NCBI GenBank assembly: GCA_964016885.1
Contig: OZ024759.1
Location: 19,406,001-19,470,000, forward strand
From: Eledone cirrhosa
Lineage: Eukaryota
Direction of reading: 5' to 3'
DNA: 64,000 nt
Each line of letters starts with the position of its first letter. The first letter of the stretch is position 1. The notes under the pieces are model-generated. The model saw only the letters and a list, made by a program, of their open reading frames with translations, was not told the DNA's origin and ran no database searches. Shown piece by piece: positions 10,286 to 47,174 of the stretch. The position numbers were made by a program, and so were the translations under genes.

Positions 10286-10797
10286 ATTTAGCCCTAAAAT
10301 CCCTCCCCTGGCATTTAAGATTCTCTCCATTGAGGGGTTAAAATCTTCCCATTAGAAAATCACTGTACTCATCATCACCGTTTTACGTCCGTTCTTCTAC
10401 GCTAGCATGGGTTAGACAGGTTGTCCTGTTGTGGGCAGTGTCTGGTCAGCTGAACTTGTCTTGCTCATACGGGAACTGATTCTGGCTTGATTTCTACAGC
10501 TGGATGCCCTTCCTAACACCAACCTCATTTACAGTGAGTGTTGGGTGCTTTTTTTTCCGTGGCGCCTACACGTCCACTTTACAGTGTGGGCTGGGTGCTT
10601 TTTTGCCGTGGCACCTCCACGACCACTTGCATTTCATTTCTACAGCTGAGTAAAGTGGAGCAATGTGAAATAAAGTGTCTTGCTCAAGGAAACAACACAT
10701 CACCCGGTATGAGAAGTGAACTCACAACCTTTCGATTGCAAGCCCAATACTCTAACCACTAAGCCACACGCCTAACCAATTTAATTCTTCCTTGTAG

Positions 10798-14487: not shown

Positions 14488-15122
14488 GGATGCACATGGC
14501 TTAGTGGTTAGAGCATTGGGCTTGCAATCGAAAGGTTGTGAGTTCAATTCTCAGACCGGGTGATGTGTTGTTTCCTTGAGCAAGACACCTTATTTCACGT
14601 TGCTCCAGTTTACTCAGCTGTAGAAATGAGATGATAGGGACTGGGGTCCCTACCATTCCACTGTAAAGTGGTCGTGGAGGTGCCACGGCAATAAAGCACC
14701 CAGCCCACACTGTAAAGTGGTCGTGGAGGGGCCACGGCAAAAAAGCACCCAGCCCACACTGTAAAGTGGTCGTGGAGGGGCCACGGCAAAAAAGCACCCA
14801 GCCCACACTGTAAAGTGGTCGTGGAGGTGCCACAGCAAAAAAGCACCCAGCCACACTGTAAAGTGGTCGTGGAGGTGCCACGGCAAAAAGGCACCCAGCA
14901 CTCAATGTAACGTGGTCGTGGAGGTGCCACGGCAAAAAAGCACCCAGCACACACTGTAAAGTGGTTGTGGAGGTGCCATGGCAAAAAAGCACCCAGCACT
15001 CACTGTAAATGAGGCTGGTGTTAGGAAGGGCATCCAGCTGTAGAAATCAAGCCAGAATCAGTTCCCGTCCCACCCTTGCAAGCAGGGAAAAGTGGACATA
15101 AAATGAAATGATGCTGATTATG

Positions 15123-35012: not shown

Positions 35013-36167
35013 GAAAAAGCATACATTATATAATATTTTAATAGTTATAAGCAATATATTTTTCTTGCACAATAAATTCAGTATAAATATTAAAGTTTTT
35101 AATGAGAAAAAGTTTCACATGCTAAGTTATACACACATACCCCATTCTGTCTCAAGGCTAATATATATATGGTGCCATATATATGTAAATACATTTCAAG
35201 TTAAAATTCTACTATTTATTCATATACAACATCAAAACAAGAACAGTAGAAAAGTGTGTAAATATATTTACACAAATATACACATCGTCACATACGTGCA
35301 TGTGTATATATATTGGTATTTTATATACATATATATAAATATCATAGATTGAGTTATAAACTCCAAAATAGTCTTTTACAATTAAATAGCTCAAAGAAGG
35401 GAATCTTTCCGAGCCGTGTAATACAATTAAATATATGGCGGGATGAACACAGATACAAGTATACATGTCTTCCAATTGCAGACGACCAAGTTAGATAGGT
35501 TGAAAAAATACTAATTAAAAAAAATATGGTTTGCCTGTCTCGATTTCAAGTAATAAATCAATAAAAATAACAAACCTATATATATATATATACACACATA
35601 CACACACACATATATATCAAGAACTACTGAGTTAAGACTAGGTATATACAATAGTGTGTACATGCATATAGTATCATTTACACATCTCTCTCTCTCTCTA
35701 TGAGCAAGACAAGGTCAGCCGACCAGACACTGCCCACAACAGGACAACCCGTCTAACTCATGCTAACATGAAAGAAATGGTAAAATGGTGATGATGATGA
35801 TATACAAGCATATATATCCATATCTACACATAGAAAAATACGTACACTTATATATGCACAAAGTGCTGGTTTATATAGCCAGAGGATTCCTCCACATATA
35901 CGAACATATGTTTATATAAAATCAAATGGTATACATGAGACAAAATGTGATATTACACATACATCTATATACACAGTTTCACATACCCATACAATTATCT
36001 ATTTTCATATTCGAAAATGTATTACTTTATACTATATATATATATATATAAAAGAAAATTTTCGCTCTACATGGCTGAATACAATAAATGTAATCTGAGT
36101 TATTAATAATATTCAATTCGTTTGCAATTATGCAAACAAGCCTCAATTTTATAGCCATGTTAGTATG

Positions 36168-36229
36168 GAACAGTGAGCTGTACTGATGAAGGGTGATACC
36201 CAGAAACATTAGTGTCTGCAGTTCTGTTC
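36168..36229 (+). ncRNA. Type-I hammerhead ribozyme motif (intact)
   Basis: GAACAgtGAGCTGTA-CTGATGA-AGGGT GAT ACCCA-GAAA-CATTAGTG-TC-TGCAGTTCTGTTC; GUC site. Confidence 0.85.
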
Positions 36230-36729
36230 ACACTCTAACACAAGAGCAAGAATGAAGGGTTCATTCTACTGACATGGCTATAAAATTGAGGCTTGTTTGC
36301 ATAATTGCAAACGAATCAAATGTTATTAATATTCGAAAAACTCAGATTACATTTATTTATATATATCATCATCATCATCATCGTTTAACGTCCATGTTCC
36401 ACGCTTGCATTGGTTTGGACGGGAGTTTTCCCACTTGAGGCAAGAGTGGTTGTCTTGCTCGCATAGGACTGTCTGGCGGGTTTTCTACAGTTGGATGCCC
36501 TTCCTAACACCAACCACATTTACAGTGTGGGACTGGGAGGTTTTTACCGTGTTGCCTACACGGCCACATTACAGCGTGGACTGTGTGTTTTTTTGTCGTG
36601 ACACCTACACGATCTCATTTGTTTCTTATATATATATATACTGAAGTAAAAGTTAAGTGGAAATATCCAAGAGAAAGAGCACTCAATCCATAGGACGAGT
36701 TAAGTATAAATAATTATAACAGTGACATA

Positions 36730-36884
36730 AACAGGTACTCAAGTTTCGTTGGGTTCTGGGCCCCAACTCATCCAGCCTGTCATGAGAAAAATAACAAAGA
36801 TCAGTAAAGTGCTTTGTTTTTATTTTTCTCATGATAGGCTGAATGAGTTGGGGCCCAGAACCCAATGAAACTTGAGTATCTGTT
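36730..36884. ncRNA. Divergent pair of variant hammerhead-like motifs with an 8-nt core (CUGRAUGA)
   Basis: GACAGG-CTGGATGA-GTTGGG..CCCAAC-GAAA-CTTGAG-TA-CCTGTT (minus); CTGAATGA version on plus. Confidence 0.55.
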
Positions 36885-36907
36885 TATGTCACTGTTGTAA
36901 TTATTTA

Positions 36908-36939
<32 letters not shown>

Positions 36940-38699
36940 GTACCTATGCGAGCAAGACAACGAATCTTGCCTCAAGTGAGAAAACTCCCGTCCAAACCCA
37001 TGCGAGCGTGGAACATGGACGTTAAACGATGATGGTGATGATGATGAGTACCTCTCGATGACAGAGGACCGAAATCTCTGGTGTTAAGTTGTAAATACAG
37101 AAGACCTGCCTTCCCATGGACACGGGCTGAAGCTGAAGCATATATATATAGTATGCACAACCTCCACCCTTCCATACATCTCCCATGAGGACAGGCTTAA
37201 GCACACATTTAGTGAAGCCTCCAAACTACATTGCAAAGTGGTCATGTGGATGTCACAACAAAAGGCACCCAGTACTCACTGTAAATGGTGTTAGGAAGAG
37301 TATCCAACTGTAGAAATCAAGACAAAATCAGTTCTGTATGAGCAAGACAGACACTGTGCTGTAGGATGTATTGTTTACACCAAACAAACAAGCATCACTG
37401 GTTGCTTTAAGTATTGTCAGTAAATTGCCCCCATACACACACATGTGGCAAGATACTGATTGGCCTAACGATATTTATTGTAGAAGAGAAAACTATGATT
37501 CTGAAGCGATGTTTCATCTGGCAACAAATATTTTTATAAATTATTTCTTCTTCTTCGCCCACTTATTCCTGTGAGAGTTTGGTAGGGCAGAGTCCTCAAC
37601 ACTACCGCCAGCGGATCCTATCAGAAAGTGCTCCTAGTTCAAGTGTTGTCCATGGCACAAGCCATGCTTGCCATACTCTAGTGCCTCTGTATGTATGCCA
37701 AATGATGAAAATGTATCAAAGGGTAAGACACTTGGAAACCTGTACAATCAGCCTGGGCCAGTTTAAGTTCTTTTGAGCCTCTAAACACTTAAAATACTAT
37801 GATGTCCTACCCTCATTATAACCAGCACCATATTAAATCTTCAAATAGTTGTTTAATTTCAAAATTATTTGAAGATTATATGCAGTATTTTTCATGAGAA
37901 ATATGACAATGAAAGGATTGAAGTGTTCATCTTCTTCGCCCACTTATTCACGAGAAGAGGGTTGTGTAGGCAGTCCTCAAACACTCCCCCCAGTGGGTCC
38001 TGTCAGAAGCAACCGTCTCCAACTGATCCAGCTGGATCCCCAAGCGAGACCAGCCAGGCTCATGGATGTTATCCAATTATCTTGCTCAGAGTCTACTCCT
38101 GGGTCTCCTGCCGGTTAGTTTCGTCCATAAAATCTGTCCAGCAATTCTTTCCTGAGACATTCTACCAACATGCCCATAGCATCGCAGCTGTGATCTCTCA
38201 ATTTGGTGAAGTAGCGGCTCTACCTAGAGTGACTTTCTGATCTTTGAGCTACACACTATCGAGTAACATTACTCCAAAGACCCTCTTTCTATTCAAACCG
38301 GCCATAACCGGCTGCTCATACTTATGTCAAGGTATTGTTCTCAAATTAAATATCAAAATTATTTCTTATAGATCAGATTTTGTATTGAAAATTAAAAAAA
38401 CAAAAAATCTTAACCCTTTTGACTCCAACCTCTCAAAACTGCCCCTGTTTCTATTATATATTTTGTGTGTTTGTTGTAACTTAATGAATTGATGAAAAGA
38501 GATTGATAAAAAGTACCAGATTTGAAATAGAGAACAAAAATAAGATTACTGTTGTTGAAATGATCAACTAAATGAAAGCAAAGCCCCAGCATGGCTGAAT
38601 CTACTGACTTAAGCAAGTAAAAGAATAATTTGAGTATAAGAAAAATCTGTAACCTGAATTTCAGAGCTAATGTACCTTCATAACAAGGGAGACGAAAGA

Positions 38700-45958: not shown

Positions 45959-46257
45959 TGAAACAAAATGAAAACGAAATTTCATTTCTCACTCTTAGTA
46001 TGGCACTTACTTAAATGTAAGTATGCATGTATACGTACATACATATATGTATACAGACGTACAGTAGCATGCACATATATATATATATATATACATATAT
46101 ATATACATATGCATACAGGTACACATACATATATGCACGTATCAGTTTAGCGGCACTAACGTCGCTTTGTTCGTTTGTAAACAAACTGAACAGCCTGAAT
46201 TTATGCCATACGGTGTTAAGGCAACCACGTCACCTTTTTGTTCAACACTGACACAGG

Positions 46258-46302
46258 AACGATGTACTAGTTTCAAGCTTGTTAGCTATCATCAGCACCG
46301 TT
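46258..46302 (-). ncRNA. Minimal type-I hammerhead ribozyme motif (intact)
   Basis: Identical tandem copy 468 bp from 46726-46770. Confidence 0.85.
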
Positions 46303-46725
46303 TACCCATCTGCCAGATAGTTGAACGTTCGAAAGTATATACTTTCCTTATGAAAATTAACGGCTGAGCAGCCTAATTTGCATATTGAGTGAGTTAAATC
46401 GGTCAGGCATACCGAAAACGATAAATTGAAACAAAATGAAAACGAAATTTCATTTCTCACTCTTAGTATGGCACTTACTTAAATGTAAGTATGCATGTAT
46501 ACGTACATACATATATGTATACAGACGTACAGTAGCATGCACATATATATATATATATATACATATATATATACATATGCATACAGGTACACATACATAT
46601 ATGCACGTATCAGTTTAGCGGCGCTAACGTCGCTTTGTTCGTTTGTAAACAAACTGAACAGCCTGAATTTATGCCATACGGTGTTAAGGCAACCACGTCA
46701 CCTTTTTGTTCAACACTGACACAGG

Positions 46726-46770
46726 AACGATGTACTAGTTTCAAGCTTGTTAGCTATCATCAGCACCGTT
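46726..46770 (-). ncRNA. Minimal type-I hammerhead ribozyme motif (intact)
   Basis: Exact reverse complement of 46848-46892. Confidence 0.85.
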
Positions 46771-46847
46771 TACCCATCTGCCAGATAGTTGAACGTTCGA
46801 AAGTATATACTTTCCTTTCGAACGTTCAACTATCTGGCAGATGGGTA

Positions 46848-46892
46848 AACGGTGCTGATGATAGCTAACAAGCTTGAAACTAGTACATCGTT
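46848..46892 (+). ncRNA. Minimal type-I hammerhead ribozyme motif (intact)
   Basis: AACGGTG-CTGATGA-TAGCT AACA AGCTT-GAAA-CTAG-TA-CATCGTT; 7-bp stem I, GUA cleavage triplet. Confidence 0.85.
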
Positions 46893-47133
46893 CCTGTGTC
46901 AGTGTTGAACAAAAAGGTGACGTGGTTGCCTTAACACCGTATGGCATAAATTCAGGCTGTTCAGTTTGTTTACAAACGAACAAAGCGACGTTAGCGCCGC
47001 TAAACTGATACGTGCATATATGTATGTGTACCTGTATGCATATGTATATATATATGTATATATATATATATATATGTGCATGCTACTGTACGTCTGTATA
47101 CATATATGTATGTACGTATACATGCATACTTAC

Positions 47134-47174
<41 letters not shown>

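What the first reader, a model, noticed from the sequence alone, without database searches (positions are those of the whole stretch)
36083..36358. Full-quality hammerhead held in the loop of a long inverted repeat
Seen: arms ~36083-36165 and ~36267-36358 are reverse complements. The loop contains CUGAUGA (36183-89), stem II GGGU/ACCC, GAAA (36203-06), stem III CA-UUAG-UG, a GUC site at 36214-16 and a 13-bp stem I with a 2-nt bulge. Unlike the other fold-backs, the ribozyme is single and not base-paired by the inverted arm. Inference: it could cleave as a monomer, and the stem-I bulge could give the loop II tertiary contact typical of fast hammerheads.
Basis: partly seen in the sequence, partly recalled or inferred. 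Interest (0 to 1): 0.7.

Follow-up and report, generated by a model that had tools for sequence, protein, structure and literature searches.

The report
Retrozyme copy with mismatched hammerhead
This is one truncated copy of an abundant 437-base non-coding repeat that carries a hammerhead RNA motif; the mirror-image arms are likely a by-product of Penelope-type insertion rather than a holder for the ribozyme, and the motif has an A-A mismatch and a predicted self-blocking fold, so it likely cuts weakly on its own.

Summary
The hammerhead letters and the arms are at the stated places. They are one insertion of a dispersed, protein-free 437-bp repeat (1,559 exact core matches; head-to-tail units): a forward arm 36168-36357 behind an inverted, 5'-truncated copy of the same 3' end (36165-36050, with a 35-nt tail), set in TA repeats. 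Of 60 copies taken in genome order, 33 have such an inverted arm, with varying breakpoints; 21 of 24 classifiable ones have one tailed and one untailed end, the published Penelope footprint. The arms do not change the predicted ribozyme fold. 'Full-quality' is overstated: the normally G-C pair 10.1-11.1 is A-A throughout the family, and the lone motif is predicted to pair its core with loop III, 6.6 kcal/mol below the active fold; helix III is self-complementary, which favours a dimer. The stem-I bulge idea holds up by position in unrelated families. Copy 5' ends are modestly enriched at the cut site (9/99 vs 2/100). No RNA data. The scan found such retrozymes repeatedly elsewhere in this genome. 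New member of a known kind.

The parts
36033..36049 (.). (TA)n repeat on the left, the likely insertion target
   Evidence: Sequence; 41 of 60 family copies end within 30 nt of a TA run against 8% background
36050..36165 (-). Inverted, 5'-truncated copy of the repeat's 3' end (monomer 309-435), including the ~35-nt tail at about 36050-36082
   Evidence: blastn against the L015 monomer, 87%; tail seen as loose ends in DNA contigs at 36357
36168..36357 (+). Forward arm of the 437-bp repeat (monomer 211-402), 5'-truncated at the foot of stem I, ending at the short (untailed) end
   Evidence: 94% to the L015 monomer; 40 best genome matches 91-97%
36168..36229 (+). Type I hammerhead motif: stem I 36168-82 with 36217-29, UG bulge 36174-75, core 36183-89 and 36203-06, predicted cut after C36216
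36190..36202 (+). Helix II read as A36190-A36202 mismatch (10.1-11.1), three G-C pairs and loop UGAUA
   Evidence: 97 of 100 listed copies have this A; same A-A in sister family B; G-C, U-U, C-A or G-U at this place in other families
36206..36215 (+). Helix III (3 bp with UUAG loop); the 10 nt are self-complementary (8 Watson-Crick + 2 G-U), and 36207-12 is complementary to core 36183-88
36267..36357 (+).
36358..36366 (.). TA repeat on the right, followed by (CAT)n and another repeat

Best explanation
The locus is one two-armed insertion of a protein-free 437-bp hammerhead repeat (a retrozyme), likely pasted into a TA repeat by a Penelope-type reverse transcriptase/endonuclease, and its A-A-mismatched hammerhead is predicted to cut weakly alone and better when two tandem copies pair. 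Shown: the repeat family, head-to-tail units, the inverted 5'-truncated arm with varying breakpoints, one tailed and one untailed end, TA targets, the fixed A-A. Inferred: the enzyme cut both target strands and started cDNA at the two start points that bound the tail; the left cDNA stopped after about 125 nt, short of the ribozyme, the right one ran about 190 nt, through it, and the two were joined head to head, so the ribozyme lies in the 'loop' only because one arm is longer. Inferred: in tandem transcripts two hammerheads cut out a 437-nt monomer that may be circularised, while the core/loop-III pairing would keep a lone motif mostly off. This window copy has one motif and only about half a unit, so it would not make a monomer and is likely a dead end.
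For: Family size 1,559 exact core matches, control 0. Two-core tandems at 430-444 bp in 3 of 60 ordered copies plus L015, L019; monomer start preceded by the tail in 27 of 34 cases. Inverted upstream arm in 33 of 60, lacking the core-to-cut stretch in 23. One long + one short end in 21 of 24, p 1.4e-4. TA run after the 3' end 41 of 60 vs 8%. Same layout published for PLEs: inverted 5'-truncated copy, 30-40 bp tail at one end, TA bias (PMC8557442 passages; PMC3846280 passages); tail = stretch between two RT start sites, both strands cut and extended (PMC11167929 passages). An RT + GIY-YIG element in this genome (L040) has an inverted copy of its own 3' end and a hammerhead. Folding: active fold 6.64 kcal/mol above the ensemble with or without arms, core/loop-III pairs above 0.99; loop UUAG ranks 11 of 256 for blocking, median 2.82; double hammerhead -43.4 vs two active monomers -31.2. 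Copy 5' ends at the cut step 9 of 99 insertions vs 2 of 100 just upstream, p 0.033; pattern retention across the cut 0.762 vs 0.804 and 0.848.
Against: No autonomous partner was found: none of 30 GIY-YIG loci shares the repeat's ends, one merely has a copy nearby on the other strand. No RNA evidence. The blocked fold also wins in the dimer (-52.0 vs -43.4), so dimerisation only lowers the penalty from about 6.5 to 4.3 kcal/mol per site, and nearest-neighbour energies omit core and tertiary contacts. The 5'-end excess is small and post hoc, the step just downstream also has 6 of 100 (combined p 0.063), and several joints at the cut use TGCA or stem-I microhomology, although other TGCA sites show no excess (4 of 97 vs 7.8 expected). 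Covariation in stem I within the family is not above the shuffle control (2 pairs changed on both sides, 169/500 shuffles). Loop III is kept in 2,831 of 3,266 copies, about what inheritance alone gives, so selection for the blocking pairing is not shown.
Confidence: 0.8

Rival explanations
1. One reading: an efficient monomeric hammerhead displayed in the loop of a functional long hairpin.
For: Core, three helices and GUC site intact; U-purine bulge at the conserved place; invertebrate retrozyme hammerheads with a 2-bp helix III and tetraloop cut as monomers (PMC7229834 sections 14-15); the arms leave the motif free.
Against: A-A at 10.1-11.1, called the most conserved pair after A15.1-U16.1, with U-U the best-tolerated mismatch (PMC3088659 passage); blocked fold; arm breakpoints vary from copy to copy and 27 of 60 copies have no inverted arm.
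Confidence: 0.1
2. The ribozyme is dead in the whole family: the A-A and the blocking pairing were fixed in a founder that the Penelope enzyme copies through its 3'-end signals, cleavage being dispensable.
For: Hammerhead cleavage was not needed for insertion in vitro by the anole PLE (PMC11167929 passage); blocked fold wins in monomer and dimer; no covariation signal within the family; Rfam does not list it.
Against: Sister family B keeps core, A-A, bulge position and a paired stem I although stem I and helix III sequences differ; 5' ends are enriched at the cut; units are head-to-tail as expected from multimeric or circular templates.
Confidence: 0.25
3. The repeat is the pseudo-LTR of an autonomous Penelope-like element not seen here, and the copies are just its 5'-truncated insertions.
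For: Same footprint as autonomous PLEs; Xenopus retrozymes are related to pLTRs (bioRxiv 10.64898/2026.07.22.740005 passages).
Against: Where a copy reaches monomer position 1, the tail of another unit precedes it in 27 of 34 cases, and in the 5 other cases printed no shared upstream sequence appears; no reading frame in the unit above 51 codons on the sense strand; no contiguous ORF found in 110 loci.
Confidence: 0.07
4. A MITE-like DNA element whose terminal inverted repeats captured a hammerhead.
For: Long inverted arms around a short spacer.
Against: The arms are the repeat's own 3' end, unequal in length and variable between copies.
Confidence: 0.01

Closest known systems
Metazoan non-LTR retrozymes (Cervera and de la Pena 2020, PMC7229834: passages and sections 14, 15 read; Li, Clavereau, Pollet, bioRxiv 10.64898/2026.07.22.740005: part 1 of 5 and passages)
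   Same: Non-coding, low-GC (37-38%) unit with one type I hammerhead, found as monomers and head-to-tail repeats in a genome that also holds PLEs.
   Different: 437 bp is at the upper end of the 150-450 bp range; arrays are short (two cores in 3 of 60); most copies are truncated and over half carry an inverted arm; circular RNA not shown here.
Axolotl HHR_Amex2 (PMC7229834 section 15)
   Same: Helix III of two pairs plus tetraloop, and a mismatch at the base of helix II; weak as monomer (22% in 1 h), much better as dimer.
   Different: U-U there, A-A here; here loop III is also complementary to the core; not assayed.
Penelope-like element insertions with inverted pseudo-LTR and tail (PMC8557442, PMC3846280, PMC11167929: passages read; PMC4209133: parts 1-2 of 4)
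   Same: Head-to-head inverted 5'-truncated copy, 30-40 bp optional tail at one end, TA targets, hammerhead in the repeated unit, near-palindromic helix III suited to dimers.
   Different: No RT/GIY-YIG frame; long bulged helix I and 4-position helix II of the canonical retrozyme type rather than a minimal PLE hammerhead with G10.1-C11.1.

Membership tests
Type I hammerhead ribozyme | Core CUGANGA / GAAA / UH with three helices, helix I open | tested here: met
Type I hammerhead ribozyme | Purine-pyrimidine pair at 10.1-11.1 | tested here: not met
   A-A in the window and 97 of 100 listed copies; natural U-U exceptions are published
Type I hammerhead ribozyme | Loop I / loop II tertiary contact nucleotides | tested here: inconclusive
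   U-purine bulge at -9/-8 in 9 of 13 tabulated motifs and loop II ending in A; loop II is one base shorter here; no 3D test
Type I hammerhead ribozyme | Match to an Rfam hammerhead model | tested here: not met
   None at gathering score or among 26 matches to E 10
Type I hammerhead ribozyme | Site-specific self-cleavage | not testable with these tools
   Only an indirect sign: 5' ends 9/99 vs 2/100
Metazoan non-LTR retrozyme | Non-coding low-GC unit of 150-450 bp with a type I hammerhead | tested here: met
   437 bp, GC 0.37-0.38, longest sense frame 51 codons
Metazoan non-LTR retrozyme | Head-to-tail repeats with two hammerheads | tested here: met
   For the family: L015, L019, L058, L060, L075; not for this copy
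Metazoan non-LTR retrozyme | Expressed as unit-length linear and circular RNA | not testable with these tools
   No RNA holder listed
Penelope-like insertion footprint | Head-to-head inverted 5'-truncated copy | tested here: met
   33 of 60 and this copy
Penelope-like insertion footprint | Optional 30-40 bp tail, mostly at one end | tested here: met
   Ends at about 401-406 or 429-437; 21 of 24 mixed
Penelope-like insertion footprint | Bias for TA microsatellites | tested here: met
   41 of 60 vs 8%
Autonomous Penelope-like element | RT + GIY-YIG reading frame between pseudo-LTRs | tested here: not met
   No such frame linked to the unit in 110 family-centred loci or 30 GIY-YIG loci

The most novel reading that the evidence does not exclude
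A natural hammerhead with an A-A mismatch at 10.1-11.1 and a built-in off switch (loop III pairs with the catalytic core) does cut in the cell, only as a tandem dimer or with protein help, and the cut RNA ends are recorded as the 5' ends of genomic copies; together with U-U and C-A families in the same genome this would show that animal retrozymes are tuned down at this one position.
Probability: 0.3. Interest if true: 0.55.

Novelty: new member of a known kind. Interest (0 to 1): 0.3.

Why it matters
As a locus it matters little: one dead-end copy among thousands, and the fold-back is an insertion by-product. The family is a clean test case for two open points: whether Penelope enzymes move retrozymes (proposed, not shown biochemically in the papers read), and how far the hammerhead tolerates loss of its most conserved helix-II pair. 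I did not find a natural A10.1-A11.1 hammerhead in five literature searches, but the library is partial and figures and supplements of the key papers were not read.

Tried and rejected
RNA evidence: no RNA holder listed; three runs of one study, contigs only, laid on 35900-36500 show the family ends but nothing on expression. Autonomous partner: long ORFs in the 110 loci held at that point belong to LINEs or to PLEs with unrelated ends; 30 of 150 scored GIY-YIG loci checked, no shared ends. Rfam: no hammerhead match. Reading the two A's as two separate insertions around a GGGU/ACCC stem: rejected because unrelated families keep a 4-position helix II with the variable pair at its base. Perfect-palindrome loop III as family norm: rejected, UUAG in 2,831 of 3,266. 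Covariation within the family: not above control (30 of the available copies, B rows left out because their shorter helix III misaligns). Selection on the blocking pairing: not shown. MITE reading: rejected. The 30 loci were chosen by likeness to the window and were not used for frequencies; the 60 are the first places on contig C1 and are conditioned on an exact core; L037 and L038 look like duplicates of one insertion and were both counted. One search's output was swamped by TA repeats and was redone. Earlier-findings look-ups by sequence and nearby gave nothing.

Full report
Observation. The motif is as described: core CUGAUGA 36183-89, GAAA 36203-06, helix III with loop UUAG, GUC at 36214-16, and a 13-bp stem I with a UG bulge. 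The arms are real (4 mismatches and an 8-nt deletion over 91 nt). Two things were missed: an A on each side of the GGGU/ACCC stem, and 33 extra bases on the left arm, which runs to 36050. Rfam lists no hammerhead here.

What it is. A search of the own genome (3.0 Gb) gave 1,081 candidates, 40 scored, 91-97% identical; the core pattern has 1,559 exact matches, reversed control 0. Loci L015 and L019 hold two cores 437 bp apart. Against the L015 monomer, the window copy is a forward arm m211-402 (36168/9-36357) preceded by an inverted arm m309-435 (36165-36050), between TA repeats. The unit is 37-38% GC with no sense frame above 51 codons (one of 115 codons on the other strand). So the 'inverted repeat' is the element's own 3' end, present twice.

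How common the layout is. I fetched 60 loci covering the first places on contig C1. 33 of 60 have an inverted arm upstream; in 23 of the 33 it lacks the core-to-cut stretch, in 10 it includes it; breakpoints scatter along the unit. 3' ends fall in two groups, about m401-406 and m429-437. Of 33 two-arm loci, 24 have both ends in these groups, and 21 of the 24 have one long and one short end (p 1.4e-4), as the window copy does. 41 of 60 ends are followed by a TA run against 8% background. Where a copy reaches monomer position 1, another unit's tail precedes it in 27 of 34 cases. These are the published marks of Penelope-like insertions: an inverted 5'-truncated copy, a 30-40 bp tail often at one end, TA bias (PMC8557442, passages; PMC3846280, passages); in the anole element the tail is the stretch between two RT start sites and both target strands are cut and extended (PMC11167929, passages). 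An RT + GIY-YIG element in locus L040 shows an inverted copy of its own 3' end and a hammerhead, but its ends are unrelated to this family, and 30 GIY-YIG loci showed no shared ends. The mobiliser is inferred, not identified.

The ribozyme. 97 of 100 listed copies carry the A before GAAA. A looser pattern finds 3,170 motifs with it, including an older subfamily and a sister family B with a 293-bp tandem unit and a minimal palindromic helix III; 1,186 motifs match without that A, mostly other families with canonical stems. Lining up 13 motifs from fetched DNA shows that short-stem families have helix II plus loop of 14 nt (13 in this family) with the pair at 10.1-11.1 being G-C, G-U, U-U, C-A or A-A, and a U-purine dinucleotide at -9/-8 in 9 of 13 rows. 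Pair 10.1-11.1 is described as the most conserved after A15.1-U16.1, with U-U the best-tolerated mismatch (PMC3088659, passages); the axolotl motif with U-U there cut 22% in an hour alone and far better as a dimer (PMC7229834, section 15). Stem I pairs in 91% of cells among 26 distinct copies, but covariation does not exceed the shuffle control.

Folding. The lone motif's lowest fold pairs core 36183-88 with 36207-12 (probabilities above 0.99); the active fold lies 6.64 kcal/mol above the ensemble, and the figure is the same with both arms, with the full left arm, or without it. The natural loop ranks 11 of 256 possible loops for this penalty (median 2.82); of six other natural motifs, two with long helix III score 0.5 and 1.2, four minimal ones 6.9-10.2. 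Helix III is self-complementary over 10 nt; a double hammerhead scores -43.4 kcal/mol against -31.2 for two active monomers, -44.2 for two blocked monomers and -52.0 for the best, still blocked, dimer. These energies omit core and tertiary contacts, so they rank folds but do not give rates. Dimeric action for short palindromic helix III is the published rule (PMC4209133, parts 1-2 of 4).

Does it cut? No RNA run was listed. As an indirect test I counted nested patterns stepping 4 nt upstream: 2,720, 2,188, 1,668, 1,414; retention is 0.804 just 3' of the cut, 0.762 across it, 0.848 just 5' of it. Of the first 100 post-cut matches, 28 lacked the four bases before the cut; 10 rows (9 insertions) have unrelated or inverted-arm sequence right there, one directly a TA repeat. 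The control steps gave 2 of 100 upstream and 6 of 100 downstream; 9/99 vs 2/100 p 0.033, cut plus downstream p 0.063. Several of the joints use TGCA or stem-I microhomology, but other TGCA sites show no excess (4 of 97 vs 7.8 expected). This is suggestive of cut RNA being copied; stalling on stem I is a live alternative.

Mechanism. Shown: family, tandem units, footprint, A-A, predicted folds. Inferred: tandem transcripts are cut, mainly as dimers, to a 437-nt monomer that may be circularised as in mussel and axolotl (PMC7229834, sections 14-15); a Penelope-type enzyme cuts a TA repeat on both strands, copies the RNA from two start points, and the two unequal cDNAs are joined head to head. In this copy the shorter cDNA stopped before the ribozyme. 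A host transcript across the locus would form a long hairpin with the motif free in the loop, but nothing suggests a role for it.

Comparison and novelty. It works like, and meets the testable marks of, a metazoan non-LTR retrozyme with a Penelope footprint; the retrozyme-PLE link is in print (bioRxiv 10.64898/2026.07.22.740005, part 1 of 5 and passages), and this scan has noted many such families in this genome. What is particular is the A-A at 10.1-11.1 with the self-blocking loop; I did not find it in searches (PMC2837043 passages, report only compensatory changes there), but supplements and figures of PMC7229834, PMC4209133 and PMC3088659 were not read and may hold it. Verdict: real motif, ordinary origin, overstated quality; interest 0.3.

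Noticed in passing
L045, L046, L051, L052, L061, L062, L071, L072, L075, L077, L079, L085, L088 (monomer position 366/367): 15 of 112 internal arm starts fall at m367 because a tRNA-like SINE of about 190 nt sits there, always with the same 3' joint but varying 5' joints; L075 and L079 show an apparent target duplication. Likely a SINE-carrying subfamily, or a SINE that gained the last 70 nt of the unit and is co-copied by template jumps, which would mark those 70 nt as the mobilisation signal.
   Followed up: partly
window 36705-36909: Second fold-back, 93-nt arms, each with a hammerhead-like motif whose core has an extra base (CUG-A/G-AUGA) and a UA cleavage site.
   Followed up: partly
window 46012-47138: Near-perfect inverted array (324-nt arms, 100%) of another hammerhead family with U-U at 10.1-11.1; 468-bp tandem units in L081.
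   Followed up: partly
L093, L097, L100, L101, L103, L109, L110: Sister family B: shares A-A helix II and about 110 nt upstream (about 72% identity) with this family, minimal palindromic helix III, 293-bp tandem in L100, similar 3'-end hairpin and tail words.
   Followed up: partly
L002 1278+, L086 3211-, L094 6018-: Hammerhead families with C-A at 10.1-11.1, one with an 11-bp helix II, one with a U3-A8 core.
   Followed up: no
L002, L024, L025 (about 1503-1517): Inverted arm joins the forward arm through the complementarity of the two stem-I strands (m266), putting the ribozyme at the tip of a continuous hairpin.
   Followed up: no
L040 2680-5025: Nearly whole Penelope-like element (RT + GIY-YIG, 568 aa scanned) with inverted 5' copy of its 3' end and a hammerhead, next to a family copy in the same TA repeat.
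   Followed up: partly
window 36365-36467 and 36943-37045: Another inverted pair (103 nt, 94%) of a very high-copy repeat beginning with (CAT)n, directly after this element's right end.
   Followed up: no
window 10709-10766 (-) and 14497-14554 (+): Two partial tRNA-like matches just above Rfam's cut-off, likely SINE heads.
   Followed up: no
window 23282 (-), 31916 (-), 199 (-), 49838 (+): Further hammerhead-like motifs from loose scans.
   Followed up: no
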